From Minisyncoccota bacterium (GTDB lineage: Bacteria; Patescibacteriota; Minisyncoccia; Phycocordibacterales; UBA9973): a stretch of DNA of 64,000 bases. The stretch is taken from positions 19,795 to 83,794 of the forward strand of contig JBAZXO010000001.1 of the NCBI GenBank assembly GCA_041659785.1, in the 5' to 3' direction. The number at the start of each line of letters is the position of its first letter. Position 1 is the stretch's first letter. Under the pieces are notes generated by a model. It searched no databases. It was not told the DNA's origin and saw nothing but the letters and a program-made list of their open reading frames with translations. This document shows, piece after piece, positions 549-42,424 of this stretch. A program made the translations under genes and the position numbers.

Positions 549-594
549 GTTTATAAAGTTGAAAGTTATAAAGTTCATAAAGTAAACAAATAAT

Positions 595-1401: not shown

Positions 1402-1452
1402 AATTTGTAAGATGTATAATTAAAAGATATTATTAGTATTATAAGGTCGCGT

Positions 1453-1515: not shown

Positions 1516-1522
1516 AAAAAAT

Positions 1523-1912: not shown

Positions 1913-1929
1913 ACTGTTAATTTTTTAAA

Positions 1930-2253
1930 ATGGATTTATTTTCTACAAAAATAGCTTTTGCTGCTTCGACTACCTTTGATGGATTCATCGGGAATGTTGA
2001 TACGATGATTGTAAATCCTCTTATTGATCTTTTGTTTGCTTTAGCAGTTGTGTATTTTCTTTATGGTGTATTTGAATTTCTTTCAAATCAAGAAAATGAA
2101 GAGAAAAAAACGACTGGTAAGCAACACATGATCTGGGGTATCGTCGGTATTACTATTATGTTAGGAGTCTGGACTATCCTAGGTATTGTTCTAAAAACTC
2201 TCAACATACAAGGTATAGATCCAGAAAATAGTAAAGTTCAACTTACTCCTTAA
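1930..2253 (+). CDS. TrbC/VirB2-like pilin paralog (shorter N-terminus)
   Basis: IDLLFALAVVYFLYGVFEFLSNQENEEKKTTGKQHMIWGIVGITIMLGVWTILGIV block homologous to the neighbours. Confidence 0.55.
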   Translation: MDLFSTKIAFAASTTFDGFIGNVDTMIVNPLIDLLFALAVVYFLYGVFEFLSNQENEEKKTTGKQHMIWGIVGITIMLGVWTILGIVLKTLNIQGIDPENSKVQLTP

Positions 2254-4917: not shown

Positions 4918-5022
4918 GTCACAAGTCATTGCTTGCTAGCAATGCTCGCGACCCCGCCTCGGCACGTCTGCCTCCGGCTTTCGAGTCCAAAAAATATACT
5001 TCGTATATTTTTGTATTTTTTG

Positions 5023-5104
5023 TGCTGGAGGAGGGACTCGAACCCTCAAGCCTTGCGGCACTAGTTCCTAAGACTAGCGCGTATACCAATTCCGCCACTC
5101 CAGC
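5023..5104 (-). tRNA. tRNA-Leu (anticodon TAG), long variable arm
   Basis: Reverse complement GCTGGAGTGGCGGAATTGGTATACGCGCTAGTCTTAGGAACTAGTGCCGCAAGGCTTGAGGGTTCGAGTCCCTCCTCCAGCA. Anticodon loop CTTAGGA. T-loop GTTCGAGTC. Confidence 0.85.
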
Positions 5105-5206
5105 AAAAAACGTTTTGTGGTCAGGCATAATTTTCTGCTGAAAATTTGCACGACCCTGGCTCGCGCCGTCGCGCTCCGCCTCGCAAAAAGTACATTAGTA
5201 CTTTTG

Positions 5207-5279
5207 TGCGCCCAGGAGGGATCGAACCTCCGACCTTATCCTTAAGAGGGATCTGCTCTACCAGCTGAGCTATGGGCGC
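5207..5279 (-). tRNA. tRNA-Lys (anticodon CTT)
   Basis: Reverse complement GCGCCCATAGCTCAGCTGGTAGAGCAGATCCCTCTTAAGGATAAGGTCGGAGGTTCGATCCCTCCTGGGCGCA. Anticodon loop CUCUUAA. Confidence 0.8.
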
Positions 5280-5401
5280 ATATATATTTACACTACTTCA
5301 ACATACCTTCATTACTTAATCTAACGACCTACCAAAACAGCTATCGGCGCATGTATATAATCTACAAAACATCTATTTAATTTACAAAAAAGAACTATCT
5401 G

Positions 5402-5483
5402 TGCCCGGAGTGGGAGTCGAACCCACATCCCTTACGAGACACGATTTTAAGTCGTGCGCGTATACCAATTCCGCCATCCGGGC
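5402..5483 (-). tRNA. tRNA-Leu (anticodon TAA), long variable arm
   Basis: Reverse complement GCCCGGATGGCGGAATTGGTATACGCGCACGACTTAAAATCGTGTCTCGTAAGGGATGTGGGTTCGACTCCCACTCCGGGCA. Confidence 0.85.
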
Positions 5484-5514
5484 AATTTCTAAAATATTCT
5501 AACATATTTTAGTG

Positions 5515-5586
5515 AGGCCTGGGGCGGAATCGAACCGCCGTATATTCCTTTTGCAGAGGAATGCCTTACCACTTGGCTACCAGGCC
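5515..5586 (-). tRNA. tRNA-Cys (anticodon GCA)
   Basis: Reverse complement GGCCTGGTAGCCAAGTGGTAAGGCATTCCTCTGCAAAAGGAATATACGGCGGTTCGATTCCGCCCCAGGCCT. Confidence 0.85.
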
Positions 5587-12869: not shown

Positions 12870-12878
12870 ATTTTATGG

Positions 12879-12961
12879 TGCGTCGGGAAGGATTCGAACC
12901 TTCGTAGCCCGAAGGCGACAGATTTACAGTCTGTTGTAATTGACCACTCTACCACCGACGC
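12879..12961 (-). tRNA. tRNA-Tyr (anticodon GTA), long variable arm
   Basis: Reverse complement GCGTCGGTGGTAGAGTGGTCAATTACAACAGACTGTAAATCTGTCGCCTTCGGGCTACGAAGGTTCGAATCCTTCCCGACGCA. Confidence 0.8.
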
Positions 12962-24596: not shown

Positions 24597-24625
24597 ATTT
24601 GGAAGATAAATTATTAAATTAAAAA

Positions 24626-25099
24626 CCTCACCCCTGCCCCCTCTCCAGAATACTGGCGAGGGGTAAATGCAACATACTAAGTGTGCTATATTTTAAGTAA
24701 TGGTTATATTAAAAACAATAATTAAAGCAAGATATTTAAGGAAAGAAGAAACTAAAACAGAACAAATACTTTGGGAGAAACTTAGAAATAATAATCTTGG
24801 TATGAAATGGAGAAGACAGCATCCTTTGGATATGTTTATCCTTGATTTTTACGCACCTAAAATAAAACTCGCGATAGAATTAGACGGTTCTATTCATAAT
24901 ATAAAAGAAAATAAAGAATATGATAAAGATAGAACAGATTATTTGAAATCTAAAGATATACAAGTTCTGAGATTTTGGAATTCTGAAGTAGAAAAAGATT
25001 TAGAAAACGTTTTAAATAAAATAAAAGAAAAAACAAAAGAACTTTTATAAGTTTGTATTTTTCCCCTCTCTGGTACTCCGGAGAGGGGAAGGGGTGAGG
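24626..25099. mobile_element. candidate miniature cassette: a DUF559 gene bracketed by inverted copies of the family C GC palindromic element, with 10-bp terminal inverted repeats CCTCACCCCT / AGGGGTGAGG
   Basis: Left element 24626-24664 (cctcacccctgccccctctcc..gcgaggggt). Right element 25063-25099 (cccctctctggtactccggagaggggaaggggtgagg). The two ends are exact reverse complements. Confidence 0.5.
24700..25050 (+). CDS. DUF559 (Vsr-like PD-(D/E)xK endonuclease-fold) domain protein
   Basis: ARYLRKEETKTEQILWEKLRNNNLGMKWRRQHPLDMFILDFYAPKIKLAIELDGSIH..VLRFWNSEV matches the DUF559 consensus. Confidence 0.7.
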   Translation: MVILKTIIKARYLRKEETKTEQILWEKLRNNNLGMKWRRQHPLDMFILDFYAPKIKLAIELDGSIHNIKENKEYDKDRTDYLKSKDIQVLRFWNSEVEKDLENVLNKIKEKTKELL

Positions 25100-25145
25100 A
25101 GTATTTGGCTCAAATAGTTATCCCCATTTCACTTTCCAAAACTTC

Positions 25146-25161
25146 TGGGGGGGGGTTATAA
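25146..25161. promoter_or_regulatory. G9 homopolymer abutting a TATAAT -10 box upstream of a surface-protein gene (candidate slipped-strand phase-variation site)
   Basis: ctggggggggg ttataat at 25146-25161; ATG at 25197. Confidence 0.5.
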
Positions 25162-25196
25162 TTAAAAGAGTAATTTATTAATTTAATTTTTTACAT

Positions 25197-26282
25197 ATGA
25201 ATAAAAAAATATTAAGTGTTTTAGTTTTTTCTTTGTTCGTTTTAGGTGCCACAAAAGCTTTCGCTTCTTTAACCTTCAGCTCAGCTGCTATTACAGGAGA
25301 TGCTGCTTCTACGATAGATGTAGGTGCAGGGAATGCTTTGTCATTACAGACTACGAACAACGGAGCGATAACCACAGGAACAGGTTTAGTTACATTAGGA
25401 GGAAGTTTAAATGCTGCAGGTATTATTACTTTACCCATGACTACAAGTTCAACGACTGGTGTCATCTATAAAGGAGCAACACCTTTTATTCATAATTTTA
25501 ATTTTGGAAATAATGGAACAGTTACAACTGATGGTAAAAATACCTTCGTTGGAATAAATGCTGGTAATTTTACAATGGGGAGTACTGCGACATTAACATA
25601 TGAAAGCAGTAGTAATGTTGGTATAGGTCAAGATGTCTTAACAATTAATACTAAGGGATATGGTAATACTGCAACAGGTTGGTCTGATTTAAAACTTAAC
25701 ACTACTGGTAGTTGGAACACTGCATATGGGGTAACGGCACTTTATAATAATACAACGGGTAGTAATAATGTAGCAATTGGTGGAGAGGCATTAGGTTTTA
25801 ACACCATAGGTGGAGAAAACACTGCAGTTGGTGTTTATGCTCTTGATTTCAATACTACAGGAAGTCTTAATACCGCTAATGGTATGTACTCTCTTAGCTC
25901 TAATAGCACTGGTTCTCGCAACGTTGCATTGGGATACGCCGCGGGAGCGTACGAATTAGGGTCTAGTTCATTTTACGTAGATGCTTATGACCGAGCAAAC
26001 ACTGCAGGGGATAAAGCAGGGGCTTTGCTATACGGAACATTTAATGCGACGCCAAGTCTTCAGACTTTAACTATCAATGGAAAGATTACTGCAAGTAATG
26101 CTATGAATAAAGGCACAGTAGCTCTCTCTGCTGGCACAGCCACAGTCACAGTTGTCTCTGGTGCTGTCTGCGTAGTTAGCGAAACGACAACTGCTACAAA
26201 TGGAGTTAAGGGTGCAGTCGTCGGCACAACGCTTACAATCACGGGTACTGGTACAGATACTATTGCTTATATTTGTTTGTAA
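25197..26282 (+). CDS. secreted G/T/N-rich repeat surface protein (paralog A)
   Basis: Signal peptide MNKKILSVLVFSLFVLGATKAFA. Degenerate NTxxG..AL repeats. The N-terminal 55 aa and the promoter are duplicated at 36875. Confidence 0.5.
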   Translation: MNKKILSVLVFSLFVLGATKAFASLTFSSAAITGDAASTIDVGAGNALSLQTTNNGAITTGTGLVTLGGSLNAAGIITLPMTTSSTTGVIYKGATPFIHNFNFGNNGTVTTDGKNTFVGINAGNFTMGSTATLTYESSSNVGIGQDVLTINTKGYGNTATGWSDLKLNTTGSWNTAYGVTALYNNTTGSNNVAIGGEALGFNTIGGENTAVGVYALDFNTTGSLNTANGMYSLSSNSTGSRNVALGYAAGAYELGSSSFYVDAYDRANTAGDKAGALLYGTFNATPSLQTLTINGKITASNAMNKGTVALSAGTATVTVVSGAVCVVSETTTATNGVKGAVVGTTLTITGTGTDTIAYICL

Positions 26283-26330
26283 ATTTTTCCTTCAATTTAT
26301 TTGCGTTCATGTTTATGTTATAATTAATGC

Positions 26331-27530
26331 ATGGGTATTTTTTCTGGACACAAAAAAGAGAATGAATTGATATTAGTTTTTAATATTGGCTCGTCTTCTG
26401 TGGGCGGAGCACTTTTTGAAACACAAAGCTCCGGTATCCCTAAGATAATCTTATCTGTTCGTGAACCGATACAGCTCGAGAAGACTATAGATGTAGATCA
26501 TTTTTTACTGTTAACGATAAAATCTTTAGAAATTGTTTCTAAAAAAATTTTTAAGAAGGGGCTAGGTGCTCCAGAGCAAGTATTCTGTGTTCTTTCTTCG
26601 GCTTGGTATGCTTCACAAACAAGGATAATTAATTTTAAAAAAAATACCCCTTTTGTTTTTACTGAAAAATTAGCTGATGAGTTAGTAAAAAAAGAAATAA
26701 AAATATTTGAAGAAGAACATTTGTTGAAATATAACACCGTTGACAATAGGGTCCGCACTATCGAACTTAAAAATATCAAAACGATGTTGAATGGTTATGA
26801 GACATCCAAGCCATTAAACCAAAAGACAAAAGAATTAGAAATGACTATTTTTGTATCTATCAGTGGAGAACAAATATTAAAAAAAATAGAAGATACGATA
26901 GGGAAATATTTTCATTTCAAACAAATAAAGTTCTCTTCTTTCGTATTGTCTTTTTTTACAGTGGTACGAGACATGTTCGTAAAACAAGAGAATTTCCTTT
27001 TATTAGATATTGGAGGGGAAGTAACAGATATATCTATGATAAAGAAGAATACTCTACGAAATTCAATATCTTTTCCTCTTGGTCGTAATTTCTTAATACG
27101 AGGAGTTGCAGAAGATCTAGATTGTACTTTAGATGAAGCTTATTCCTTCATTTCTCTTTTTAAAGATGGGCACGCAGAAGAATCTATTGCAAAAAAACTT
27201 TCATTAATCCTAAATAAATTAAGAGCACAATGGCTAAAAGAGTTTCAGGATTCTTTAGCAAATTTATCAAATGATATTTCTATACCCTCGACTATTTATA
27301 TAGCTATCGACAAAGACTTGGTGGACTTTTTTACTGAAACAATTAAAACTGAACAGTTTAGTCAGTACACATTAACAGAATCAAAATTCGAAGTTATCTT
27401 TTTAAGCACTGAGTTGCTTCATGGTACTGCAGTATTTAAAGAAGATGTAATACGCGAGCAGTTTCTGATTATTGACTCTATTTATATTAATCGTTTTCTT
27501 TCTAATCCCGCTATAGCGGAGCGAGCATAA
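26331..27530 (+). CDS. actin-fold ATPase of the FtsA/PilM family
   Basis: LVFNIGSSSVGGALFE (phosphate-1-like) and LLDIGGEVTDISMI (phosphate-2-like). Confidence 0.45.
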   Translation: MGIFSGHKKENELILVFNIGSSSVGGALFETQSSGIPKIILSVREPIQLEKTIDVDHFLLLTIKSLEIVSKKIFKKGLGAPEQVFCVLSSAWYASQTRIINFKKNTPFVFTEKLADELVKKEIKIFEEEHLLKYNTVDNRVRTIELKNIKTMLNGYETSKPLNQKTKELEMTIFVSISGEQILKKIEDTIGKYFHFKQIKFSSFVLSFFTVVRDMFVKQENFLLLDIGGEVTDISMIKKNTLRNSISFPLGRNFLIRGVAEDLDCTLDEAYSFISLFKDGHAEESIAKKLSLILNKLRAQWLKEFQDSLANLSNDISIPSTIYIAIDKDLVDFFTETIKTEQFSQYTLTESKFEVIFLSTELLHGTAVFKEDVIREQFLIIDSIYINRFLSNPAIAERA

Positions 27531-27531
27531 T

Positions 27532-28782
27532 ATGGCAAAACACTTATTAGAAGACATGGTGAGGGTAAAAAATATCAAAAAAACTCCCATCAAAATAGAA
27601 CCCCCAAAGATAGAGCCTTTTAAAAATGAGCGTATACCTGAGATAGAAGTAAAATATTCTAAAAATAAATCCAGATACATGCTTTGGTTCGTAGCATTAA
27701 TTTCTGTCGTATTTTGTTTTTTTGCCATTTCTTTTTTATTTGCAAAAGCAGAAATCTCGGTAAATCTAAAAACAAAAGATGTTGTTTTAAATGAAAACTT
27801 ATCTGCTCTTATAAATTCTAATACAGACGTATTGCCTTTCGAGCTCACTCATCTTTCAGGTGATACATCGAAGACAATCGTTTTGGAAGAGAGGGATTTA
27901 AAAGAAAATGCTAAAGGCAAGATTGTTGTTTATAATAAATTTAGTTCTAGTCCTCAAACTCTCGCTATTGATACACGCTTAGAAGGATCCAATAATAAAA
28001 TTTATAAAACAAAAACAAAGGTAATCATTCCAGGAATGAGTAAAGCTGGAATTCCGGGTCAAATTGGCGTGGACATATATGCCTTAGAACAAGGAGCAGC
28101 GTATAATAGTGCTCCACTTGATTTTAAGATAGCAGCCTTTAAGGGAACGAGTAAATATGCAAAATTTTATGGCAGATCAGTGGGGGATATTACAGGTGGT
28201 ATTGTTGGTAAATCTCGCCAAATTAGTGATTTACAAAAAACTCAAACAACAGATGAGCTCAAGCCAATTTTACAAGACAAGCTTTACAATAAAATTGCGA
28301 GTCAGATTCCAGGATTTTTGTTATATAAGGATGCTATGTTTTTAAATGTTGAAGATATTACCACTGGGGCCGTAGCTCCCGATGGTTCAGCTGTTCTAAC
28401 TTTAAAAGGCACTCTTTACGGTATCATTTTTAATGAAAAAAAATTAACTGATAAAATAGCTAAAGACAATATTGAAAAATATGATAATAGTGAAGTTTAT
28501 ATACCAAACATTAAGAGTTTAAACTTTTCTCTTTCCGACAAAGGAAATATCGTATTTGATAGTGTAAAAAATATAAATTTCACTTTGTCGGGCCCTACGA
28601 AGATTGTCTGGAAACTTGATATAAATAAATTTACTACAGATTTACTTGGTAAACCTAAAAAAGACTTTAATCAACTTCTTTCAGAATATCCCAGTATTAG
28701 TTCTGCTCTTGTGAAGTTGAGCCCACCCTGGATACAATCTATTCCCAATAAAGCTAAAGATATAAAAATAACAGTAAATTAG
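27532..28782 (+). CDS. hypothetical bitopic membrane protein (cytoplasmic K/P-rich N-terminus, one TM, large extracytoplasmic domain)
   Basis: ORF directly downstream of the PilM/FtsA-like gene (1-nt gap); no domain recognised. Confidence 0.35.
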   Translation: MAKHLLEDMVRVKNIKKTPIKIEPPKIEPFKNERIPEIEVKYSKNKSRYMLWFVALISVVFCFFAISFLFAKAEISVNLKTKDVVLNENLSALINSNTDVLPFELTHLSGDTSKTIVLEERDLKENAKGKIVVYNKFSSSPQTLAIDTRLEGSNNKIYKTKTKVIIPGMSKAGIPGQIGVDIYALEQGAAYNSAPLDFKIAAFKGTSKYAKFYGRSVGDITGGIVGKSRQISDLQKTQTTDELKPILQDKLYNKIASQIPGFLLYKDAMFLNVEDITTGAVAPDGSAVLTLKGTLYGIIFNEKKLTDKIAKDNIEKYDNSEVYIPNIKSLNFSLSDKGNIVFDSVKNINFTLSGPTKIVWKLDINKFTTDLLGKPKKDFNQLLSEYPSISSALVKLSPPWIQSIPNKAKDIKITVN

Positions 28783-33101: not shown

Positions 33102-33740
33102 ATGGTAGATAAAGAAGAAAAGAAACTTGCCCCGTCCAAAGGCGGGGATAATGAAATTCCTACAGAGGGAGATACTTCCGAGGTTCTTGAATTTGAGTTC
33201 AACGAAGACGGGGAAGAAGATTTAAAGAAAACTCTAAAGAAATTTAGAGCGGACATAAAAGAACTCAAGAAAGAAAACTACGAGCTTAACGCCACAAGTA
33301 TTGAGTATCTTACTGGCTGGCAGAAAGAGCGAGCAGAATTCGCAAATTATAGAAAACAAGAAGATGAAAGAAAAGCAATCTTTTCCGAAGCGATGCGTGA
33401 GAGAATACTTACTCGTTTTTTGACCGTCTCTGATAGCTTCAACATGGCTTTCGCAAACAAAGAGGCTTGGGAAAAAGTCGATGATAATTGGCGTAAAGGT
33501 GTGGAATATATTTATGCTCAGATGAATGGAATATTTGAAGAATATGGAGTGAAACCCGTAGGTGAAGTAGGTGAGAGTTTTGACCCCAATATTCATCAAT
33601 CTGTCGATGTTGTAGAAACAGACAAAAAAGAACTAGAACACAAGGTGGCAACTGTGATACAAAAAGGCTATAAATTAGGCGAGCGCGTCATGCGTCCAGC
33701 TAGGGTAAATGTGTACGAGTTCAAAGAAAAAGTAGTATAA
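33102..33740 (+). CDS. grpE: nucleotide exchange factor GrpE (the N-terminal tail contains an in-frame family A palindrome)
   Basis: C-terminal ..KVATVIQKGYKLGERVMRPARVNV..; the element at 33126-33147 encodes KKLAPSKGGDNE. Confidence 0.85.
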   Translation: MVDKEEKKLAPSKGGDNEIPTEGDTSEVLEFEFNEDGEEDLKKTLKKFRADIKELKKENYELNATSIEYLTGWQKERAEFANYRKQEDERKAIFSEAMRERILTRFLTVSDSFNMAFANKEAWEKVDDNWRKGVEYIYAQMNGIFEEYGVKPVGEVGESFDPNIHQSVDVVETDKKELEHKVATVIQKGYKLGERVMRPARVNVYEFKEKVV

Positions 33741-33749
33741 TAAGATAAA

Positions 33750-33818
33750 CCCCCACACCTATTTCAAGTGCACATCAAATATATACTAAGCTTAATATTT
33801 TAAAAATAGGTGTGGGGG
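33750..33818. repeat. perfect 15-bp inverted repeat (cccccacacctattt / aaataggtgtggggg) with a 39-nt AT-rich loop downstream of grpE
   Basis: Read directly. Candidate terminator or small structured RNA. Confidence 0.6.
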
Positions 33819-33853
33819 TAAAGGTCGTTTGTTGGTTATAATATCTTATTTTT

Positions 33854-34159
33854 ATGGTATTTATTTACACAACTTGCGCGGATTCTATTGAGGCACAACT
33901 TTTAGGTAAATTAATTATCGAAAAAAAGCTCGGTGTCTCTATAGACTATTGGCCAATAGACTCTATCTATAATTGGGAGGGTAATATAAAAGAAGTGTCA
34001 CAAATGATGCTAATGATTACTACTCTTGAATCTAAGCTCGAAGAAGTGAATGATTTAGTTTCTAAACATCACAGCTACTCCACACCAATAATTGCTGGTG
34101 TCGATGTTCGTAGAATTAACAGAGCTTATAAAGAGTGGATGACCAAAAATATTACCTAA
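33854..34159 (+). CDS. cutA: CutA1-like divalent-cation tolerance protein
   Basis: About 100 aa. ..IDSIYNWEGNIKEVSQMMLMITTLE..HSYSTPIIAGVDV resembles the CutA1 family. Confidence 0.55.
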   Translation: MVFIYTTCADSIEAQLLGKLIIEKKLGVSIDYWPIDSIYNWEGNIKEVSQMMLMITTLESKLEEVNDLVSKHHSYSTPIIAGVDVRRINRAYKEWMTKNIT

Positions 34160-34236
34160 ATGCATATTTACGCCATGGCGTATATATAAAATATTTCTTA
34201 AACTATCATATATGATATATTAAGAAATTAAATGTT

Positions 34237-34770
34237 TTATTTTCCGAAAGTTTTAAATAAAACTTTCTTACTCTCTTCGTCTATAAATTCGGTGACAATG
34301 ATCATCATTTCTGTAGTTAGTCCTAAATCTTTTTTAATATTCGTAAATAAATGTTCGTATGGGAAAGGGGAGATCCATGCAGAATTTTTTAAACATATGA
34401 AGCCCGCTTTTTTTAAAAGGTAGCGCAAGCTCTCGCGTTCAGATTTTCTATCTTCAGGAAGATCTAGGAGAATAATTCTCCATAAACCATCCCAAGAAGT
34501 ATTTACCAGAGTCGTATCATTGTCTAACTTTAAGCTATTCATTTTCTTTCTTCCTTCTTTTGTCAGCCTAGCATATTCGTTTTGTGGGGATGGTATTTGC
34601 TCTATGAGTCCAGCTTCCTTTAAGCCCTTTAAAGAGCGTGTAAGGGCATATTTGTCCGCCTGAGAGCAGTCCTTTTGGTTTATCCTTTCTGTTAGTTCTG
34701 ATAGTGAAATAGCTGATTTTTCCCCTAAAATCTTGAGTATTTTCTTGGAATATTTTGATTTGCTTGACAT
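34237..34770 (-). CDS. PaaX-family-like winged-helix transcriptional regulator, divergently transcribed from dnaK
   Basis: N-terminal wHTH (..SLSELTERINQ..ALTRSLKGLKEAGLIEQ). C-terminal DGLWRIILLDLPE..RESLRYLLKKAGFICLKNSAWISP resembles the PaaX C-terminal domain. Confidence 0.4.
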   Translation of the reverse strand: MSSKSKYSKKILKILGEKSAISLSELTERINQKDCSQADKYALTRSLKGLKEAGLIEQIPSPQNEYARLTKEGRKKMNSLKLDNDTTLVNTSWDGLWRIILLDLPEDRKSERESLRYLLKKAGFICLKNSAWISPFPYEHLFTNIKKDLGLTTEMMIIVTEFIDEESKKVLFKTFGK

Positions 34771-34857
34771 AGATATATACTATCATATATACTACTTTTA
34801 TACAAATAATTAGTGGTCGCGAAATATAAGTTAAATTATAAAATAATCATATAACAT

Positions 34858-36750
34858 ATGAGTAAAATAATAGGTATAGATTTGGGTACAACAAATTCGG
34901 CTGTCGCTATCATTGAAGGAGGCGCACCAAAGATTATTGAAAATGTCGAAGGAAACAGAACGACACCTTCTGTGGTTGCCACAGCAAAAAATGGTGACCG
35001 CATCGTCGGCTTACTTGCTAAGAGGCAAGCAGTTACAAATCCAGAAAATACAATTGCTGAAATCAAGCGCTTCATGGGGCATCGTTTTGATGATCCAGAA
35101 GTTCAGAAAGATCATCAGACTGCAGCATTTAAAATTGAAGCCGGAGATGGTGGTGGAGTAAAAGTAAAAATGACAGATAAGTTTTACCGACCAGAAGAAA
35201 TTTCTGCGATGATCTTACAGAAAATTAAAGCAGATGTGGAAGCAAAGTTGGGTGAAAAGATTACTGAAGCTGTCATCACTGTGCCAGCATATTTCAACGA
35301 TGCTCAAAGAAAGGCTACCAAGGATGCAGGAGCTATCGCAGGACTTGATGTGAAGCGTATCATCAATGAACCTACAGCTGCAGCACTTGCTTATGGTTTC
35401 GATAAAAAGAAAAATGAAAAAGTTGTCGTCTACGATTTCGGTGGAGGAACTTTCGATGTGTCCGTCCTTGAAATAGGTGATGATGTCATAGAAGTAAAAT
35501 CAACCGATGGAGACAGTCACATGGGTGGAGGTGATATTGATAGAAAAATAATTGCATGGATTGCTGACGAATATAAAAAGGAATCAGGTATTGATGTAAC
35601 GAAAGATCCACTTGCACACCAGAGACTAAAAGAAGCAGCAGAAAAAGCTAAACATGAACTTTCTACAACAATAGAAACTGAAATAAATATCCCATTTATA
35701 ACTTCCGATGCATCTGGACCAAAACACTTACTCTTGAAGATGACTCGTGCCATGCTCGAATCTCTTGCGAAAGAATACATTGATCGCTCTATCGAAATCA
35801 CGAAGAGAGCCCTCGCTGCTTCTCCATTTAAAATGAATGAGATAAATGAAATCATCATGGTGGGTGGTCAGACCAGAATGCCAGCTATCGTCTCTGCTGT
35901 TAAAAATCTCTTCGGCAAAGAGCCAAATATGTCTATAAATCCTGACGAAGTCGTAGCCCTCGGTGCTGCAGTGCAGGCTGGAGTCCTAGCCGGTGATGTG
36001 CGAGACGTGCTTCTTCTTGATGTTATACCTCTATCTTTAGGTATTGAGACATTGGGTGGAGTGTCTACAAAGTTAATTGAAAGAAATACAACTATTCCAT
36101 CTTCTAAATCTCAAGTATTCTCTACCGCTGCTGACAATCAGACTTCTGTAGAAATACATATCGTTCAAGGTGAACGTCCAATGGCTTCCGACAACAAATC
36201 TCTCGGACGATTTATCTTGGACGGAGTTCCACCAGCACCTCGTGGCATGCCACAAATCGAAGTCGCTTTCGACGTCGATGCGAACGGAATCTTGAATGTC
36301 ACCGCGAAGGATAAAGCTTCAGGAAAGAGCCAATCAATAAAAATTGAAGCAAGTTCTGGACTTAAAGACGAAGATATTAAAAAGATGCAAGCCGATGCTG
36401 AGCTTCATGCCGAAGAAGATAAAAAGAAGAAAGAAAATGCAGAAGTGAAAAATACTGCAGAGATGATTATCTACACTGCAGAGAAAGCATTGAAAGATAA
36501 TGAAGCAAAAATTCCTGCAGAATTAAAGGATGAAGTAAATGCTAAAATTACTGCACTCCGTGGAGTAAAAGATGGCACTGATGGTGAAGCGATAAAGAAA
36601 GCTACTGAAGAACTTTCAACAGAGATGTCTAAAATCGGTGAAGCTGTATCTAAGGCCGGCGCCGAGACTCCGGGAGCAAGTGCTCCAGAAGAGCAACCCG
36701 CAGAAGTAAAAGAAAAGACAGAAGGTGAAGAAGAAACACCAAAAGCGTAA
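34858..36750 (+). CDS. dnaK: molecular chaperone DnaK (Hsp70)
   Basis: [23 protein letters not shown], and the full Hsp70 architecture with an acidic C-terminal tail. Confidence 0.95.
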
Positions 36751-36782
36751 TTGTTCAACACTCGGTGTTAAACATTCAAAAA

Positions 36783-36809
36783 CCGCTAGGTAAGACCTAG
36801 CGGTTTTTG
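36783..36809 (+). terminator. intrinsic terminator downstream of dnaK
   Basis: ccgctagg-taaga-cctagcgg hairpin followed by ttttt. Confidence 0.65.
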
Positions 36810-36874
36810 TTGCTTTTGTCTACGGGGAGGGGTTATAATTAAAAGGTTAATTTATCAGTTTAATTTTTTAATGT

Positions 36875-37861
36875 ATGAATAAAAAAATATTAAGTTTGTT
36901 TGTTTTATTGGTATTGGTTTCGGGGGCAACTAAAACTTTTGCATCTTTAACATTTAGCTCTGCTGCCATTACAGGAGACACAGCTTCTACGATAGACGTA
37001 GGTGCAGGAAATGCGTTATCGTTACAGACTACAAATAATGGGAATATTATTACAGGAAGTGGAAATTTTGGAGTTGGTATTGGTATACCTACACAAAAAC
37101 TTGATGTTGTCGGTTTTGTTAATACTGATCTTGGTTATAAACAAGCAGGAAATACAATTCTTTTTACCAAAACTTCTAATCATTCTACTGCTGTGGGTGC
37201 TTCTTCTGCAGCTTCATGGATGGCTACTACGCCTCTTGATTATTCTGCAACTGCTGTAGGCTATGGCGCTCTTGCAACAACTCCTGTAGATGTTGGAGGT
37301 TTAGCATGGGATAATTCTGCTTTCGGAGTTAATTCTCTTGCAAGTACTACAACAGGTGGATATAACGTTGCAGTTGGTGGTTATTCTCTTTTTTCTAACA
37401 CTACAGGTTGGTTTAACACTACAATAGGTGATTCATCTCTTGGTTCAACCACTACAGGATGGGGTAATAGTGCTAATGGGAATGGGGCTCTTTTATCTAA
37501 CACCACAGGCTCATACAATACAGCACTCGGCATGAGTGCTCTTTATTATAATTCAGTGGGTTCCAATAATATTGCCTTGGGGCATAATGCTGGTAGTTAC
37601 GAAACAGGTTCAAATTCTTTTTATGTAGACAATCAAGATCGTTTAAATACTGCAGGAGATAAAGCGAATGCTATTCTTTATGGAATAATGGCACCAGCGG
37701 CAGTTAATCAGACATTGCATATCAATGCAGTAGTGATGCCAATCCAGGCTACGACAGCTGCTGCACCAGCTTATGTAAAGGGAGGAATGTATTTTGATAC
37801 AACTTTAAATAAGTTAAGAGTAGGGGGAGCGACTGGTTGGGAAACAGTTACTTCATCATAA
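36875..37861 (+). CDS. secreted G/T/N-rich repeat surface protein (paralog B of 25197)
   Basis: Upstream region plus the first ~55 aa are about 80% identical at nucleotide level to 25120-25370; the remainder is divergent. The -10 TATAAT lies at 36834-36839, preceded by GGGGAGGGG. Confidence 0.5.
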   Translation: MNKKILSLFVLLVLVSGATKTFASLTFSSAAITGDTASTIDVGAGNALSLQTTNNGNIITGSGNFGVGIGIPTQKLDVVGFVNTDLGYKQAGNTILFTKTSNHSTAVGASSAASWMATTPLDYSATAVGYGALATTPVDVGGLAWDNSAFGVNSLASTTTGGYNVAVGGYSLFSNTTGWFNTTIGDSSLGSTTTGWGNSANGNGALLSNTTGSYNTALGMSALYYNSVGSNNIALGHNAGSYETGSNSFYVDNQDRLNTAGDKANAILYGIMAPAAVNQTLHINAVVMPIQATTAAAPAYVKGGMYFDTTLNKLRVGGATGWETVTSS

Positions 37862-37930
37862 AAAGTAATTTATAAAAAGCCCCCATTGGGGGCTTTTGGT
37901 TTTAGAAGATAAATTGTATAATAGTATTAT

Positions 37931-40072
37931 ATGGACTTGCCAGAAATACCTATAAATAAAGATGTTACCTATCTGGGTCTTACTACTTTTCGTGACAAAA
38001 ATCAGCTCTTCGGCATAAAGCGCAAGGACAGACGCCAGCATGTTTATATTCTCGGAAAGTCAGGTACGGGTAAATCTGTGCTCATGTTCAACATGATTAT
38101 TCAGAACATCCAGAATGGCGAAGGTGTCTGCGTAGTTGACCCGCACGGAGAGCTCGTAGAAGGAGTCTTGTCGGCTATTCCACCGGAACGTATTAAAGAT
38201 GTAGTTTATTTCAACCCTGCTGATGCCGATCACCATATTGGTTTCAACGTTTTAGAATTAATTGATCCTCAATACAAACATCTCGTGGCTTCAGGGCTCA
38301 TGGGTATTTTCACTAAAATTTGGGCGAATGCATGGAGTGCCCGAATGGAATATATTTTAAACAATTGTATTTTAGCTTTGCTCGATACTCCAGGTACGAC
38401 ACTGCTCGGCATTCCTAGAATGCTCGTCGATAAAGATTATCGCCAGAAAATAATTGCGAATTTAAAAGACCCAGTTATTAAGGCTTTCTGGATTCACGAG
38501 TATGAAGCTTGGCAAGATAAATTTAGAAATGAAGCGATCGCTCCGATTCAAAACAAAGTCGGGCAATTTCTCTCTACATCCATCATCCGCAATGTCGTCG
38601 GTCAATCTTTAAGTACTATAAATATTTTCGACATCATGAATGATGGGAAGATTTTCCTCGTAAACGTTTCGAAAGGGCGCATCGGTGAAGATAACTCTGG
38701 CCTCCTAGGAGGAATGATCATTACCAAAATTCAGCTCGCTGCGATGGAGCGTGTTCGTATTCCGGAAGATCATCGTAAAGACTTTTACCTATATGTCGAC
38801 GAATTCCAGAATTTCGTGACGGACGCTTTTGCAGGTATTTTGTCTGAGGCTAGAAAATACAGATTGAACCTTACTGTTGCCCACCAATACACTGCCCAGC
38901 TCGTCGTGGACAAGAGTTCTGCCGTGCGAGATGCTGTCTTTGGAAACGTGGGTACGATGATTGTCTTTCGTGTTGGCTCTGATGATGCAGACTTCTTGGA
39001 AAAAGAATTTGATCCAGAATTTACTCCTTCGGACATTGTTAATTTGCCGAATTATAAAATTTATTTGAAATTAATGATAGATGGAGTTACGTCTAGACCT
39101 TTTTCTGCGAAGACACTTCCACCTATGGTTAAGTCCGGTGATAAAAAAGTAGAAGAAGCAGTTATCAAATCTTCTCGTGAACTTTATTGTAGACCCAAGG
39201 AATTAGTAGAAAGAGAAATTAATGACTGGAGCGGAATGTCACTTGGGAATTATAGTGAATCAGGAGGGGGAGCGGGTATGGAGAAATTCCCAGTTATCTG
39301 TTCACTTTGTAAACTAGAAAAGACTGTACCTTTCAAGCCAGAGCCAGGCAGAGCTGTTTATTGTAAGGAATGTATTGCAAAAATAAAATCCGGAGAGGTA
39401 AAGGTAGAGAAAAAAGGACAAGATCAAATAAATTACGATGAATCTAAATTTTTTAAACCGTTAGCTGATTTAGGTATAGAATTTCAACCAAAGAATGTAA
39501 AAGTTGAAGAAGAAAACAGATATCCTGAGAGAGTAGAGAAACATACTTCAGCACCAACAAAACCTTCTTCTGTGCCAAAACCATATATTTCTGCAAATAA
39601 ACCCTCCTCTTCGGCGGGCAGGCCAGGAATTATGGGGGCAATTAAAAAAGTTTTTGTTCCCACTCCAAAGGTAAACCAAAATAAAGCTGAGGCTCCTAAA
39701 AAAATAGATAATTCAGCACTTAGGGAAGTTTTAAATAAAACTTTACATAGTGAACAGGCGAGCCCGGTGATTCCAACTCCAGCACCAGTCAAGACTCCTG
39801 TGCCAGAGCCTGTTTCTCTTGATTCCTTAAAAGATAAAATAAAAGAAGAAGATAAAAAACTTGCCCGTCCATCTGGTGGAAATTTTTCATCATACAATGA
39901 TCGTTCTGCTGGCGCAGATGAGATGAATAAATTGAAAAATTTGATTTCAGAAAAAATTGAAACTAAAAAAGAAGAAGTAGCTCCAGCTCCAGCTCCAACA
40001 CCAATTCCGATACCTCAAAAACCAGCAACAAAAGAAGTACCTGAAGATGTTTTAAGAAAAGTTTTAGAATAA
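37931..40072 (+). CDS. VirD4/TraD/TraG-family type IV coupling-protein-like P-loop ATPase with a C-terminal CxxC..CxxC zinc ribbon and a P/K/A-rich low-complexity tail
   Basis: Walker A YILGKSGTGKS, VVDPHGE, Walker B FYLYVDEFQNF, ARKYRLNLTVAHQYTAQL and FGNVGTMIVFRVG (TraG-D_C-like). CSLCKLEK...CKECI ribbon. Confidence 0.6.
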   Translation: MDLPEIPINKDVTYLGLTTFRDKNQLFGIKRKDRRQHVYILGKSGTGKSVLMFNMIIQNIQNGEGVCVVDPHGELVEGVLSAIPPERIKDVVYFNPADADHHIGFNVLELIDPQYKHLVASGLMGIFTKIWANAWSARMEYILNNCILALLDTPGTTLLGIPRMLVDKDYRQKIIANLKDPVIKAFWIHEYEAWQDKFRNEAIAPIQNKVGQFLSTSIIRNVVGQSLSTINIFDIMNDGKIFLVNVSKGRIGEDNSGLLGGMIITKIQLAAMERVRIPEDHRKDFYLYVDEFQNFVTDAFAGILSEARKYRLNLTVAHQYTAQLVVDKSSAVRDAVFGNVGTMIVFRVGSDDADFLEKEFDPEFTPSDIVNLPNYKIYLKLMIDGVTSRPFSAKTLPPMVKSGDKKVEEAVIKSSRELYCRPKELVEREINDWSGMSLGNYSESGGGAGMEKFPVICSLCKLEKTVPFKPEPGRAVYCKECIAKIKSGEVKVEKKGQDQINYDESKFFKPLADLGIEFQPKNVKVEEENRYPERVEKHTSAPTKPSSVPKPYISANKPSSSAGRPGIMGAIKKVFVPTPKVNQNKAEAPKKIDNSALREVLNKTLHSEQASPVIPTPAPVKTPVPEPVSLDSLKDKIKEEDKKLARPSGGNFSSYNDRSAGADEMNKLKNLISEKIETKKEEVAPAPAPTPIPIPQKPATKEVPEDVLRKVLE

Positions 40073-40075
40073 TAT

Positions 40076-41539
40076 ATGGCAAAGTCTAATAGAGTACAGA
40101 TAATAAAATATGCTCCGCCACCACCAGAATTACCAGTCTTCGGAAAGGTAAAGCCAGAAGATGTGTCTTTTATTGGGCGGACAAATTATGTAGCTTCTCT
40201 AGAAGAAAAGAAGTTTGTTTTCGGCATCAAGAGAGTAGACCGCCGAAGACATCTTTATATTATCGGAAAGTCCGGAGTCGGTAAGACGAAATTGCTCGAG
40301 CTTTTTATACGTCAAGATGTTTCTTATAATCATGGATTGTGTTTGATCGATCCACACGGAGACGTCATAGATTCCATGCTTGATTATATTCCTAAAGATC
40401 GTATCGAAGATGTTTGCATTATAGATCCTTCTGATATTGATTTTCCGGCTTCTTTCAACCCACTAGCGAACGTGGACCCAATGTTTAAGTTTCAGCTCAC
40501 TCAAGGCCTCATTGAAGTTTTCCAGAAACAATTCGGAGCAAATTGGACGCCTCGTCTAGAACACGTTTTTCGTTTTACTTGTTTAGCACTCCTAGATTAT
40601 CCTCATGCCACGATGCGTGGAATGATTTCAATGCTTACTGACAGAAATTACAGACAGAAAGTCGTGGAATACATTACAGACGACATGGTGAAGAGATTCT
40701 TCGCTATTGAGTTCGCAGACTGGTCTGAGAAATTCGATACAGACGCTATCATTCCACTTGTAAACAAACTCGGTCAATTCCTCTCAGACCCACTTCTCCG
40801 AAATATTTTCGGACAGAAGCAAAACAAAATAGATATCACTAAATTAATGAATGAAGGGAAAATAATCCTTATCAATCTTTCTAAAGGGCGCCTTGGTGAA
40901 GAAAATTCTTCTTTTCTTGGTTCTATATTTTTAACAAAAATAAAACAAGCTGGTATGGAGCGTGCTGCTATTCCTGAACAAGATCGTAACGACTTTTATC
41001 TCTATGTGGATGAGTTCCAAAACGTCGTGACACAGACCTTCGAAAATATTTTATCAGAAGCTAGAAAATATGGCTTGAATTTAACAATTGCCCATCAGTA
41101 TGTGGGACAGATTTTACCTAAAGTGCATCAGGCCGTGCTCGGAAATGTCGGAAGTGTAATTTGTTTCCGTGTCGGCGGTGAAGATGCTGTAAAACTAAAG
41201 CCAGAATTCGCACCCGTTTTCGACGTAAAGGATATGATCAACCTTGCTGTAGCAGAATTTTATATAAAAATGACGATTGATGGGGAGTCTTATGACCCAT
41301 TTTCTGCAGAGACTCTACGTGTATTACCACCAACTCATCCTTCATACAGGCAAGAGATTATAGACGCATCTCGCAGAAAATATTCGATACCCAAGGATGA
41401 TGCAGCGACGCTTATAGCTGAAGAAGAAGCTACAATTATTCGAAGTGTAGAAGAAAAAGCGATAATTGAAGGTAAGACAAAAAGAAAAGATAGAGAAGAT
41501 AATTCAGAAACTTCCCAAGAAGGGGAGCCTATGATATAG
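40076..41539 (+). CDS. second VirD4/TraD-family coupling-protein-like ATPase (shorter tandem paralog)
   Basis: YIIGKSGVGKT, LIDPHGD, FYLYVDEFQNV, ARKYGLNLTIAHQYVGQI. Roughly 40% identical to the upstream paralog. Confidence 0.6.
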   Translation: MAKSNRVQIIKYAPPPPELPVFGKVKPEDVSFIGRTNYVASLEEKKFVFGIKRVDRRRHLYIIGKSGVGKTKLLELFIRQDVSYNHGLCLIDPHGDVIDSMLDYIPKDRIEDVCIIDPSDIDFPASFNPLANVDPMFKFQLTQGLIEVFQKQFGANWTPRLEHVFRFTCLALLDYPHATMRGMISMLTDRNYRQKVVEYITDDMVKRFFAIEFADWSEKFDTDAIIPLVNKLGQFLSDPLLRNIFGQKQNKIDITKLMNEGKIILINLSKGRLGEENSSFLGSIFLTKIKQAGMERAAIPEQDRNDFYLYVDEFQNVVTQTFENILSEARKYGLNLTIAHQYVGQILPKVHQAVLGNVGSVICFRVGGEDAVKLKPEFAPVFDVKDMINLAVAEFYIKMTIDGESYDPFSAETLRVLPPTHPSYRQEIIDASRRKYSIPKDDAATLIAEEEATIIRSVEEKAIIEGKTKRKDREDNSETSQEGEPMI

Positions 41540-41554
41540 TTTTCAAACGTAATT

Positions 41555-42424
41555 ATGTCAAAAGATTATTATGAAATTTTAGGCGTTAATAAAGGTGCGT
41601 CAAAGGACGAAATTAAAAAGGCTTTTTATAAGTTGGCGCACAAATATCATCCTGATAAAAAGGGTGGGAATGAAGAGCAGTTTAAAAAGGTAAACGAAGC
41701 CTATCAAGTTCTCTCTGATGATGCGAAACGCGCAAAATATGATCAATATGGCTCAGGCTTTGAGAGTGCGGGAGCGGGAGGGTATGGAGGAGGTCAGGGC
41801 TTTGGAGGGTTTGATTTCAATGGAGGTTTTCAAGGAAGTGGTGCCGATTTTGATTTCGGAAACCTAAATGACATATTTAGTGATTTTTTTGGTGGCGGGG
41901 GTGGAATGGGTGGAGGTAGACCTCAGTCTCGTCGTGGACGCGATATTTCTACTGAGATACAGATTTCTCTCACTGACTCTATGTTGGGTTTAAATAAAAA
42001 GATTTTACTCACAAAGATGTCGACTTGTCTTACTTGTAATGGTTCTGGCGCGAAGGCTGGATCAAAGATGGAAACCTGTAAGCATTGTAATGGCCAAGGT
42101 AAAATTCACGAACAAAAGAGAACAATCTTTGGGAACATTGGGAGCACAAGAGCTTGTGAAGTTTGTTTCGGTACAGGAGAAGTTCCAAAAGAAAAATGCG
42201 AAACATGTAAAGGTAAAGGTGTACTCCGTCGTGAAGAAGAAGTCTCAATCAATATTCCTGTCGGCATACGTGATGGGCAGACATTAAAAATGTCAGGTTA
42301 TGGAGAAGCAGTTTCGAGAGGTACTACAGGAGATCTCCTCATACAAATAAAAGTAAAAATACCTAATAAAATTTCTAAAAAAGCCCGTGAGCTTTTAGAA
42401 GAGCTTAAAAAAGAAGGAATTTAG
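41555..42424 (+). CDS. dnaJ: chaperone DnaJ, short form (J domain, G/F region, four CxxCxGxG zinc-finger repeats, truncated C-terminal domain)
   Basis: [13 protein letters not shown] domain; G/F-rich linker; [32 protein letters not shown]. Confidence 0.85.

What the first reader, a model, noticed from the sequence alone, without database searches (positions are those of the whole stretch)
25120..25370. Paralogous surface-protein pair with duplicated promoter and N-terminus, divergent bodies and a G9 tract at the -10 box
25120-25370 and 36800-37050 are about 80% identical (promoter, signal peptide and the first ~55 aa). After that the two proteins diverge while keeping G/T/N-rich NTxxG repeats. 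The first copy has nine consecutive G immediately upstream of TATAAT (25146-25161). The paralog has GGGGAGGGG there. Homopolymer slippage could switch expression, in the manner of phase-variable contingency loci. The proteins sit next to the DUF559 cassette and the T4SS-like ATPases respectively.
Basis: partly seen in the sequence, partly recalled or inferred. Interest (0 to 1): 0.65.

Follow-up and report, generated by a model that had tools for sequence, protein, structure and literature searches.

The report
Paceibacterota secreted fibre genes, G9 promoter
Two chromosomal genes of an uncultured Paceibacterota (CPR) bacterium encode secreted, phage-fibre-like proteins that share an old, selectively maintained promoter, leader and N-terminus but carry different C-terminal tips; the run of nine G in one promoter is real but nothing here shows that it acts as an on/off switch.

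Summary
There is a G9 at 25147-25155, then T, then TATAAT, 34 nt before gene A (25197-26282). The paralog B (36875-37861) has GGGGAGGGG at the same place. DNA homology (82% over 218 nt) starts exactly at the G tract.

The interpretation needs correcting in three ways.

- **Divergence.** The proteins are 49% identical over about 300 aa. They differ mainly in the last 45-65 aa.
- **Age.** The pair is old: 46% of fourfold sites differ. The promoter, leader and N-terminus are therefore conserved, not freshly duplicated.
- **Family.** Both genes belong to a narrow Paceibacterota/Nomurabacteria family of about 120 clusters among 1.8 billion. The proteins are Sec-secreted beta-solenoid fibres built from a common 5' cassette, NTxxG repeats and at least 5 interchangeable tip types.

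A third paralog lies on the same contig, outside the window.

The family promoter is an extended -10 type. Relatives carry ATATG, TGTGTG, (TG)4G5 or AGAGAGGGG where A has G9. The pure homopolymer is therefore unique to A and is one transition away from B's tract.

No read or population data for A's promoter could be obtained. Phase variation is mechanistically possible (TTTCCA-18 nt-TATAAT) but unsupported; I put it at about 15-20%.

There are side signs of recombination at the conserved 5' cassette between strains.

The parts
25117..25129 (+). Upstream box GTTATCCCCATTT. It is shared by the promoters of A and of family genes in L093/L115, L098 and L114, but not by B.
   Evidence: It is the only exact copy in the window. 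Its distance to the -10 varies from 39 to 41 nt, and its function is unknown.
25133..25138 (+). -35-like hexamer TTTCCA, 18 nt from the -10.
   Evidence: TTTCCA-18-TATAAT, 10 of 12 matches, the best site in 24600-26400.
25147..25155 (+). G9 homopolymer in the promoter spacer. Its 3' G residues occupy the -15/-14 positions of an extended -10.
   Evidence: the only G/C run of 7 or more in 64 kb.
25157..25162 (+). -10 hexamer TATAAT, within the family core GTTATAATTAAAAG.
25163..25196 (+). AT-rich leader without a Shine-Dalgarno sequence, conserved with B and with relatives.
   Evidence: (43/51 identical from the G tract to the ATG). The genome rarely uses SD (5 of 55 genes).
25197..25265 (+). 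Gene A signal peptide, aa 1-23 (MNKKILSVLVFSLFVLGATKAFA, AFA|S site).
   Evidence: helix 3-15 in the model. The cleavage site is inferred from the AxA motif.
25266..25364 (+). Gene A conserved N-terminal module, aa 24-56 (SLTFSSAAITGDAASTIDVGAGNALSLQTTNNG).
   Evidence: the profile finds only 123 cluster representatives.
25539..25946 (+). Gene A NTxxG repeats of 14-15 residues (beta-solenoid rungs), about aa 115-250.
   Evidence: (PHROG virion and tail-spike repeats).
25950..26081 (+). Gene A neck motif (YELGSSSFYVDAYDRANTAGDKAGALLYGTF..QTLTING), shared with B.
26082..26282 (+). Gene A C-terminal tip, type i (..GAVCVVSETTTATNGVKG..TLTITGTGTDTIAYICL), and stop codon.
   Evidence: class of 7 representatives; tip nearly identical in the syntenic P0003.
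36777..36809 (+). dnaK terminator hairpin that abuts promoter B. No recognisable -35 follows it.
36824..36832 (+). Interrupted G tract GGGGAGGGG of promoter B.
   Evidence: It is identical in L001 and L002, which come from other samples.
36834..36839 (+). -10 hexamer TATAAT of promoter B.
36840..36874 (+). Leader of gene B.
36875..37861 (+). Gene B (328 aa). It has the same signal peptide and N-module (aa 1-56), repeats, a neck (aa 242-285) and a type iv tip (..PAYVKGGMYFDTTLNKLRVGGATGWETVTSS).
24700..25050 (+). DUF559 (Vsr-like endonuclease fold) gene between alaS and gene A. It is absent from the syntenic loci L100 and L112, so it is context and not part of the system.
37931..41539 (+). Two TrwB/VirD4-like ATPase genes downstream of B. 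Together with B they lie between dnaK and dnaJ. They are context; no link to B is shown.

Best explanation
Genes A and B are two of at least three members, in this Candidatus Paceibacterota MAG, of a lineage-restricted multigene family of Sec-secreted, beta-solenoid fibre proteins.

**Build of a family member.**
1. A cis-regulatory cassette: an extended -10-type promoter with core (T/G)GTTATAAT(T/A)AA and an AT-rich leader of about 30 nt without a Shine-Dalgarno sequence.
2. A signal peptide plus a 33-aa N-terminal module.
3. A variable number of NTxxG rungs, of the kind found in phage and giant-virus fibres and in YadA-type adhesin heads.
4. Often a neck motif.
5. One of at least five unrelated C-terminal tip domains.

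**Why the 5' ends are alike.** The A/B similarity reflects long-term conservation of the expression, export and base module in old paralogs, with occasional recombination within that module. The tips are the variable, presumably ligand-binding, ends.

**The G9 tract.** It is a lineage-specific variant of the G/purine-rich stretch that supplies the -15/-14 positions of the extended -10. It is one transition away from B's GGGGAGGGG. It is an intrinsic slippage hotspot, but it is most likely incidental rather than an evolved switch.

**Shown versus inferred.** Shown: anatomy, family membership, fold class, age of the paralogs, promoter comparison. Inferred: surface or host-attachment role, trimeric fibre state, cleavage site, effect of tract length.
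For: **Source and paralogs.** The source is a Paceibacterota MAG. A is WC793_00250, B is WC793_00330 and a third paralog is WC793_01185.

**Chromosomal setting.** The genes lie among housekeeping genes: alaS, rpsM, rpsK, rpsD, rpoA, grpE, dnaK and dnaJ. No relative was found in viral contigs.

**Similarity and age.** The proteins are 49% identical. 12 of 26 fourfold sites differ in codons 1-60, against 43/51 identity in the promoter and leader.

**Family size and tips.** The N-module profile hits only 123 of 1.84e9 representatives. There are five main tip classes and 12 singletons among 63 full-length members.

**Family promoters.**
- L112, which is syntenic with A: ATATGTTATAAT.
- P0049, in 10 assemblies: TGTGTGTTATAAT.
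- L113: TGTGTTATAAT.
- L100, same alaS slot, AlaRS 87% identical: (TG)4G5TTATAAT.
- L093/L115: AGAGAGGGGTTATAAT.
- L114: GAGTGGTATAAT.

**Genome-wide promoter style.** TGnTATAAT promoters and leaderless starts are common, and only 5 of 55 genes have an SD.
Against: - G9 is a strong statistical outlier.
- It lies in an 18-nt spacer of the best sigma-70-like promoter in the region, in front of exactly the kind of gene that is phase-variable elsewhere.
- No expression, localisation or read-level data exist.
- The structure models are of only moderate confidence and are monomeric.
- The host-attachment role is an inference from fold and architecture.
- Conservation of the promoter could partly be due to gene conversion rather than purifying selection.
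Confidence: 0.6

Rival explanations
1. Promoter phase variation. Slipped-strand mispairing in G9 changes the spacing between the upstream elements (TTTCCA, the GTTATCCCCATTT box) and the -10. This would switch or tune expression of fibre A. B would be a locked (interrupted) copy. The result would be a contingency locus of the Mycoplasma vlp or Neisseria opc/porA promoter type.
For: - G9 is the only long G/C run in 64 kb.
- It lies in the spacer of TTTCCA-18-TATAAT, so -1 G gives the optimal 17 nt and +1 gives 19.
- The gene is a secreted, adhesin-like member of a multigene family with a conserved 5' cassette.
- The promoter in the same alaS slot in Nomurabacteria already has a simple-sequence stretch, (TG)4G5.
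- G9 tracts are hypermutable in other bacteria (established knowledge; e.g. PMC8355987, PMC5084427).
Against: - Only one of the family promoters examined has an uninterrupted tract longer than 5. The closest ones have AGAGAGGGG, GGGGAGGGG or no G run.
- The tract is one transition from B's.
- B has the same core without any recognisable -35.
- This genome favours extended -10 and leaderless promoters, in which the -35 spacing is less critical. Slippage cannot remove the G at -14.
- There are no other SSR-associated genes in the window.
- No length variant of A's promoter exists in the metagenome collection: a scan for G>=4+TTATAATTAAAAG found only B and L093.
- No length polymorphism was observed anywhere.
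Confidence: 0.17
2. Concerted evolution. The shared promoter, leader and N-terminus are kept alike mainly by repeated gene conversion or allelic exchange among family genes, not by purifying selection. The 5' cassette would then be chiefly a recombination handle for swapping bodies and tips.
For: - L093 and L115 are 100% identical for 827 nt upstream and through roughly the first 25-30 nt of the coding sequence, then 57-93% per 30-nt block through the N-module region, then unrelated.
- The N-termini are mosaic. P0008 has a B-like signal peptide and an A-like module. P0123 has an A-like signal peptide, a B-like module end and an A-type tip.
- L001 has a 2.1-kb core identical to the window around B, with flanks 12-17% divergent.
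Against: - In this genome A and B differ at 46% of fourfold sites in the shared region, and the longest exact match is about 21 nt. There has been no recent conversion between them.
- The promoter core is conserved across distant relatives whose coding DNA is much less conserved (for example L112 vs the window, 72% nucleotide identity). That argues for selection.
- The L093/L115 junction could be an assembly chimera at a repeat, since both are short contigs (Logan and JGI).
Confidence: 0.15
3. Artefact. The G9 length, or the tract itself, is a sequencing or assembly error in a low-coverage MAG.
For: The sister MAG from what appears, from the record names, to be the same study has about 3x coverage in its contig name. 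Homopolymer length is error-prone.
Against: - The tract is internal to a 318-kb contig.
- It lies in a conserved context and aligns base for base with a 9-nt purine tract in B and L093.
- Poly-G artefacts sit at read or contig ends (general knowledge).
Confidence: 0.04
4. Prophage remnant. A and B are degraded phage tail-fibre genes.
For: PHROG and BFVD matches to virion, tail-spike and fibre proteins. Many homologues are annotated as 'tail fiber domain-containing' and carry Peptidase_S74.
Against: - The proteins have Sec signal peptides and their own promoters.
- Synteny between housekeeping genes is conserved in several genomes.
- There are no phage genes nearby.
- The N-module is absent from 2.9 million viral contigs.
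- There is no S74 domain.
Confidence: 0.03

Closest known systems
Mycoplasma hyorhinis Vlp variable lipoprotein family (promoter poly(A) phase variation; Citti and Wise 1995, as summarised in PMC10502178)
   Same: A small-genome, host-dependent bacterium. A multigene family of surface proteins, each gene with its own transcript. The promoter, leader and signal peptide are highly conserved and the repetitive external regions diverge. A homopolymer lies just upstream of the -10.
   Different: In Vlp every gene carries a long poly(A) tract, and its length changes have been shown to switch transcription. Here only one gene has an uninterrupted tract (G9), relatives lack it, and no length variation is known. 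The proteins here are Sec/SPase I type, not lipoproteins, and the repeats are solenoid rungs.
Neisseria and Haemophilus promoter-spacer SSR loci (e.g. poly-G/poly-C in opc and porA promoters, TA repeats in hif; my own knowledge; nspA poly-A in PMC6389960)
   Same: A G/C or A/T tract between the -35 and the -10 of an outer-surface protein gene. A change of 1 nt alters the spacer length.
   Different: Those tracts are maintained across strains and vary within them. Here the tract is not conserved, and the promoter type (extended -10) may not depend on a -35.
Bacterial 'tail fiber domain-containing' proteins and phage or giant-virus fibres with NTxxG repeats and a C-terminal Peptidase_S74 intramolecular chaperone (PF13884)
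   Same: The same repeat type (up to about 63% identity in the best local alignment for the listed homologues; 38-43% to viral fibre repeats). A beta-solenoid stalk and a modular architecture with exchangeable distal domains.
   Different: A and B lack the S74 chaperone domain. They have a signal peptide and a family-specific N-module. They are cellular and chromosomal, and the module is absent from viral contigs.
Trimeric autotransporter adhesin heads (YadA, UspA1, EibD)
   Different: There is no coiled-coil stalk and no C-terminal beta-barrel anchor. The host lineage is monoderm-like (general knowledge about CPR). No Pfam YadA-type head or anchor hit was found (no Pfam family at all).

Membership tests
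SSR-mediated phase-variable (contingency) promoter | A hypermutable simple repeat, long enough to slip, located within or next to the promoter core | tested here: met
   G9 at 25147-25155, between TTTCCA and TATAAT. It is the only G/C run of 7 or more in 64 kb.
SSR-mediated phase-variable (contingency) promoter | Repeat length varies within and between populations of the same strain or species | not testable with these tools
   No reads are available. Protein A and its neighbours are not on record in other assemblies. The metagenome scan found no other copy of promoter A.
SSR-mediated phase-variable (contingency) promoter | The repeat is maintained as a repeat in orthologues and paralogs (selection for mutability) | tested here: not met
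   B has GGGGAGGGG, L093/L115 AGAGAGGGG, L100 (TG)4G5, L112 ATATG, the P0049 loci TGTGTG, L114 GAGTGG and L098 AATAAGAG.
SSR-mediated phase-variable (contingency) promoter | Length change alters expression | not testable with these tools
   This needs reporter or transcript data. Sequence-based expectation only: an 18-nt spacer becomes 17 or 19. However, extended -10 promoters dominate this genome.
Paceibacterota N-module fibre family (defined here) | N-terminal signal peptide followed by the module SLTF(S/T)(S/T)xAITGxxASxIDxGxGNxLSLQT | tested here: met
   A and B match over residues 1-69. In the profile search B (P0021) scores 1.1e-29. A itself is not among the representatives listed.
Paceibacterota N-module fibre family (defined here) | NTxxG solenoid repeats followed by one of several alternative C-terminal tips | tested here: met
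   A has a type i tip and B a type iv tip. Solenoid models.
Tail fiber / Peptidase_S74 (PF13884) proteins | C-terminal intramolecular chaperone (S74) domain | tested here: not met
   No Pfam family hits for A or B at E<=0.01, although many repeat-region homologues carry PF13884.
Trimeric autotransporter adhesins | C-terminal YadA-type membrane anchor and coiled-coil stalk | tested here: not met
   No Pfam or NCBIfam hit. The models show no long helices and beta-rich C-termini.
Trimeric autotransporter adhesins | YadA-like head repeat fold | tested here: inconclusive

The most novel reading that the evidence does not exclude
Paceibacterota (CPR) cells display a repertoire of secreted fibres whose host-binding tips are exchanged by recombination at a conserved promoter, leader and signal-peptide cassette. 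In this genome one fibre is additionally switched by slippage of a promoter G9 tract. That would be the first contingency locus, and the first antigenic or adhesin-variation system, described in the Candidate Phyla Radiation.
Probability: 0.1. Interest if true: 0.7.

Novelty: new member of a known kind. Interest (0 to 1): 0.38.

Why it matters
How ultrasmall CPR bacteria recognise and hold on to their hosts is largely unknown outside type IV pili of Saccharibacteria (10.1101/2024.11.25.624915).

A narrow, uncharacterised family of secreted, tail-fibre-like proteins is a concrete set of candidates for host attachment in Paceibacterota. The family has a conserved base and swappable tips, occurs in several copies per genome, and sits in conserved slots next to housekeeping operons.

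If the G9 tract really varied, it would extend simple-repeat phase variation to a major uncultured radiation. No paper in the searched library links the two.

As it stands the finding is a useful annotation and a testable lead. It is not a demonstrated mechanism.

Tried and rejected
1. **Exact-protein look-ups.** Protein A, the DUF559 protein and the downstream FtsA-like protein were looked up to find other assemblies of promoter A. None is on record. P0008 is likewise absent, so the third paralog's promoter could not be read.
2. **Metagenome scan for GGGGTTATAATTAAAAG.** It returned 95 loci. Only B (L002=L020) and L093 are related and the rest are chance matches.
3. **Genome scan with the N-module.** It found only two MAGs, four loci in all. 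The source species itself is not among the representatives.
4. **Viral contigs.** No relative was found, so a prophage origin was rejected.
5. **Family libraries.** Pfam and NCBIfam gave no hit for A, B or P0008. The PDB sequence profile gave no hit.
6. **A possible third copy in the window.** The match at 4626-4808 (-) is only a signal peptide plus low-complexity similarity to an unrelated N/T-rich membrane protein.
7. **Spacing of the upstream box.** I considered whether the GTTATCCCCATTT-to--10 distance (40 nt in A, 39 in L093 and L098) shows a +1 slip in G9. MAFFT places the indel upstream of the tract, and L114 has 41 nt, so it is not informative.
8. **G-rich stretch as a general promoter feature.** It is not: among 38 TATAAT sites only A and B have it.
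9. **Literature.** Searches for SSR phase variation in CPR/Patescibacteria found nothing relevant.

Full report
**1. Observation**

The sequence is as described.
- Window 25147-25155 is G9, followed by T and TATAAT (25157-25162). The ATG of a 361-aa ORF (gene A, 25197-26282) lies 34 nt further on.
- At 36824-36832 the second copy has GGGGAGGGG, then T and TATAAT (36834-36839). The ATG of a 328-aa ORF (gene B, 36875-37861) follows.
- The DNA similarity is 81.7% over 218 nt (25147-25363 vs 36824-37041). It begins exactly at the G tract.
- G9 is the only G or C run of 7 or more in the 64 kb. A first-order Markov model expects about 0.06 runs of 9 or more per window.
- The stated neighbours are correct: DUF559 at 24700-25050 and two TrwB/VirD4-like ATPases at 37931-41539.

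**2. Organism and setting**

Protein A is identical to MFA5931797.1 (WC793_00250) and B to MFA5931813.1 (WC793_00330). Both come from a 318-kb contig of a Candidatus Paceibacterota MAG.

The window is ordinary chromosome.
- alaS lies upstream of A.
- The FtsA-like gene, a bitopic 416-aa protein, rpsM, rpsK, rpsD, rpoA, rplQ, rplM and rpsI lie after A.
- grpE and dnaK lie before B, and dnaJ follows the two ATPases.

The genome hardly uses Shine-Dalgarno sequences (5 of 55 genes). Many genes have TGnTATAAT 5-8 nt before the ATG, which indicates extended -10 promoters and leaderless mRNAs.

**3. The proteins**

A and B are 49% identical over 306 aa, so the 'divergent bodies' are not very divergent. 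They share the following parts.
- A signal peptide (AFA|S).
- A 33-aa module, SLTFSSAAITGDxASTIDVGAGNALSLQTTNNG.
- 14-15-residue NTxxG rungs.
- A neck motif, SFYVDxxDRxNTAGDKAxAxLYG...QTLxIN.

Only the last 45-65 residues are unrelated.

Family and fold evidence is as follows.
- Pfam and NCBIfam give nothing.
- PHROGs match the repeats to virion-structural and tail-spike families.
- The AF2 models (pLDDT 71 and 68) show a solenoid of regular short strands plus a small beta-rich C-terminal domain.
- BFVD gives 38-43% identity to fibre proteins of giant viruses and phages.

Many of the more than 1400 repeat-region homologues are annotated as 'tail fiber domain-containing' and carry Peptidase_S74. 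A and B lack that domain.

**4. A narrow family with swappable tips**

A profile of the first 69 residues finds only 123 cluster representatives (81 at E<=1e-10) among 1.84 billion. It finds no relative in 2.9 million viral contigs.

Among 63 full-length members the last 42 residues fall into five main classes (14, 13, 10, 8 and 7 members) and 12 singletons. A has type i and B has type iv. The third paralog of the same MAG (P0008, WC793_01185, outside the window) has type iii.

Genomes carry several members, sometimes in tandem (L100, L101/L102).

The slot alaS-[family gene(s)]-ftsA-like-416-aa protein is conserved in three other contigs.
- L100 is from Nomurabacteria RIFOXYB1_FULL_39_16. Its AlaRS is 87% identical, and the slot holds type v plus type i genes.
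- L112 holds a type i gene only.
- L113 holds a type i gene and an additional 347-aa gene.

The DUF559 gene is present only in the window.

**5. Why the 5' ends are alike**

In codons 1-60, 49 amino acids are identical but 20 of those codons differ, and 12 of 26 fourfold sites differ. The paralogs are therefore old and the N-terminus is held by selection on the protein.

The non-coding stretch from the G tract to the ATG is 43/51 identical, well above the identity at fourfold sites (14 of 26, 54%). Its core, GTTATAAT(T/A)AA.A plus an AT-rich leader, recurs in relatives whose coding DNA is much less conserved (for example L112 vs the window, 72% nucleotide identity). It is a conserved cis-regulatory cassette.

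**6. The G tract in context**

| Promoter | Sequence at the position of G9 |
|---|---|
| B | GGGGAGGGG |
| L093/L115 | AGAGAGGGG |
| L100 | (TG)4G5 |
| L099 | GGGGGAGAG |
| L112 | ATATG |
| P0049 (10 assemblies) | TGTGTG |
| L113 | TGTG |
| L114 | GAGTGG |
| L098 | AATAAGAG |

The common denominator is the TRTGn/TGn extended -10 region, or a G-rich version of it that keeps G at -14. A pure run longer than 5 occurs only in A, and it is one A-to-G transition from B's tract. That ancestry explains the statistical outlier without selection for mutability.

B's interrupted tract is identical in two other samples (L001, L002), as expected for a stable sequence.

**7. Could G9 still be a switch?**

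Mechanistically it could. The best sigma-70-like site in the region is TTTCCA-18 nt-TATAAT with G9 inside the spacer, so a change of 1 G gives 17 or 19 nt. G9 tracts are hypermutable in other bacteria (PMC8355987, PMC5084427).

The overall layout recalls the M. hyorhinis vlp system: a surface-protein family with a conserved promoter, leader and signal peptide and a homopolymer in the promoter (PMC10502178).

Several points count against it.
- B works from the same core with no recognisable -35.
- The genome's promoter style makes the -35 spacing less critical.
- Slippage cannot remove the -14 G.
- The tract is not maintained in relatives.
- There is no second SSR-associated gene in the window.
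- No length variant could be found.

I put a functional switch at about 0.15-0.2.

**8. Signs of recombination at the cassette**

L093 (JGI Ga0172379) and L115 (Logan SRR18595301) are 100% identical for 827 nt upstream (map, promoter, leader) and through roughly the first 25-30 nt of the coding sequence. They then drop to 57-93% identity per 30-nt block through the N-module region and become unrelated after about nt 190. Different family genes therefore sit behind the same flank. This is either allelic replacement or gene conversion, or an assembly chimera at the shared module.

The N-termini are mosaic.
- P0008 has a B-like signal peptide and an A-like module.
- P0123 has an A-like signal peptide, a B-like module end and an A-type tip.

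L001 shares a 2.1-kb core with the window around B (36412-38535, 100% identical), while both flanks are 12-17% divergent.

These observations fit tip and body shuffling by homologous recombination. They rest on short metagenomic contigs.

**9. Verdict**

What is there is a pair, in fact at least a trio, of old paralogs. They belong to a lineage-restricted family of secreted fibre-like proteins with a conserved expression, export and base cassette and exchangeable tips. The G9 is a real but probably incidental homopolymer in the extended -10 region of one of them.

The family is an uncharacterised member of a known kind: solenoid fibres and adhesins, and multigene surface families. Interest is moderate. 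It would rise sharply if reads showed tract-length heterogeneity linked to expression.

Noticed in passing
L093 (reverse strand) vs L115, junction at about nt 25-30 of the family gene: Two contigs from different samples are 100% identical for 827 nt upstream (map gene, promoter, leader) and through roughly the first 25-30 nt of the coding sequence. They then diverge into different family genes, one P0008-like and the other P0123. This is either allele swapping or gene conversion at the conserved 5' cassette, or an assembly chimera.
   Followed up: partly
window 36412-38535 vs L001 (ENA ERZ27249449): A 2.1-kb core is 100% identical to L001. It covers the 3' end of dnaK, promoter B, gene B and the 5' part of the first VirD4-like gene. 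Both contig flanks are 12-17% divergent, mostly at third codon positions. This suggests a recent exchange of the segment between diverged lineages.
   Followed up: partly
window 33102-42424: The grpE-dnaK...dnaJ chaperone cluster is interrupted. Gene B and two TrwB/VirD4-like ATPase genes (the first with a treble-clef zinc finger) lie between dnaK and dnaJ.
   Followed up: no
window 144-2253 (+): Four consecutive small membrane proteins match TrbC/VirB2 or T4SS_pilin (PF04956, PF18895). This is a cluster of T4SS pilin paralogs about 36 kb from the VirD4-like ATPases.
   Followed up: no
whole window: Only 5 of 55 genes have a Shine-Dalgarno-like motif. Many have TGnTATAAT 5-8 nt before the ATG (for example at 26331, 37931, 61404, 9340, 13134). 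Extended -10 promoters with leaderless mRNAs therefore seem to be the norm in this genome.
   Followed up: partly
window 24700-25050 and hairpin 25063-25090: The DUF559 (Vsr-like endonuclease fold) gene between alaS and gene A is absent from the syntenic loci L100 and L112, so it looks like an insertion. It is followed by an 8-bp GC hairpin without a T tail.
   Followed up: partly
window 26331-28782 (+): An FtsA/PilM-like actin-fold protein (weak Pfam hit) and a 416-aa bitopic membrane protein with no family hit always follow the family gene slot in L100, L112 and L113. No functional link is shown.
   Followed up: partly
L102-L111, 2548-3096 (-): In the Nomurabacteria relatives an ECF-type sigma factor gene (Sigma70_r2/r4_2) lies immediately downstream of, and convergent with, the family gene P0049. 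It is followed by a very large surface protein.
   Followed up: no
window 4095-4865 (-): An N/T-rich low-complexity protein with a signal peptide and a C-terminal membrane anchor. It has weak spurious similarity to the family N-terminus and is not a paralog.
   Followed up: yes
window 5022-5586 (-) and 12876-12961 (-): A tRNA cluster of Leu(tag), Lys(ctt), Leu(taa) and Cys(gca), plus Tyr(gta). The two tRNA-Leu genes account for the 86-nt direct repeat D2.
   Followed up: yes
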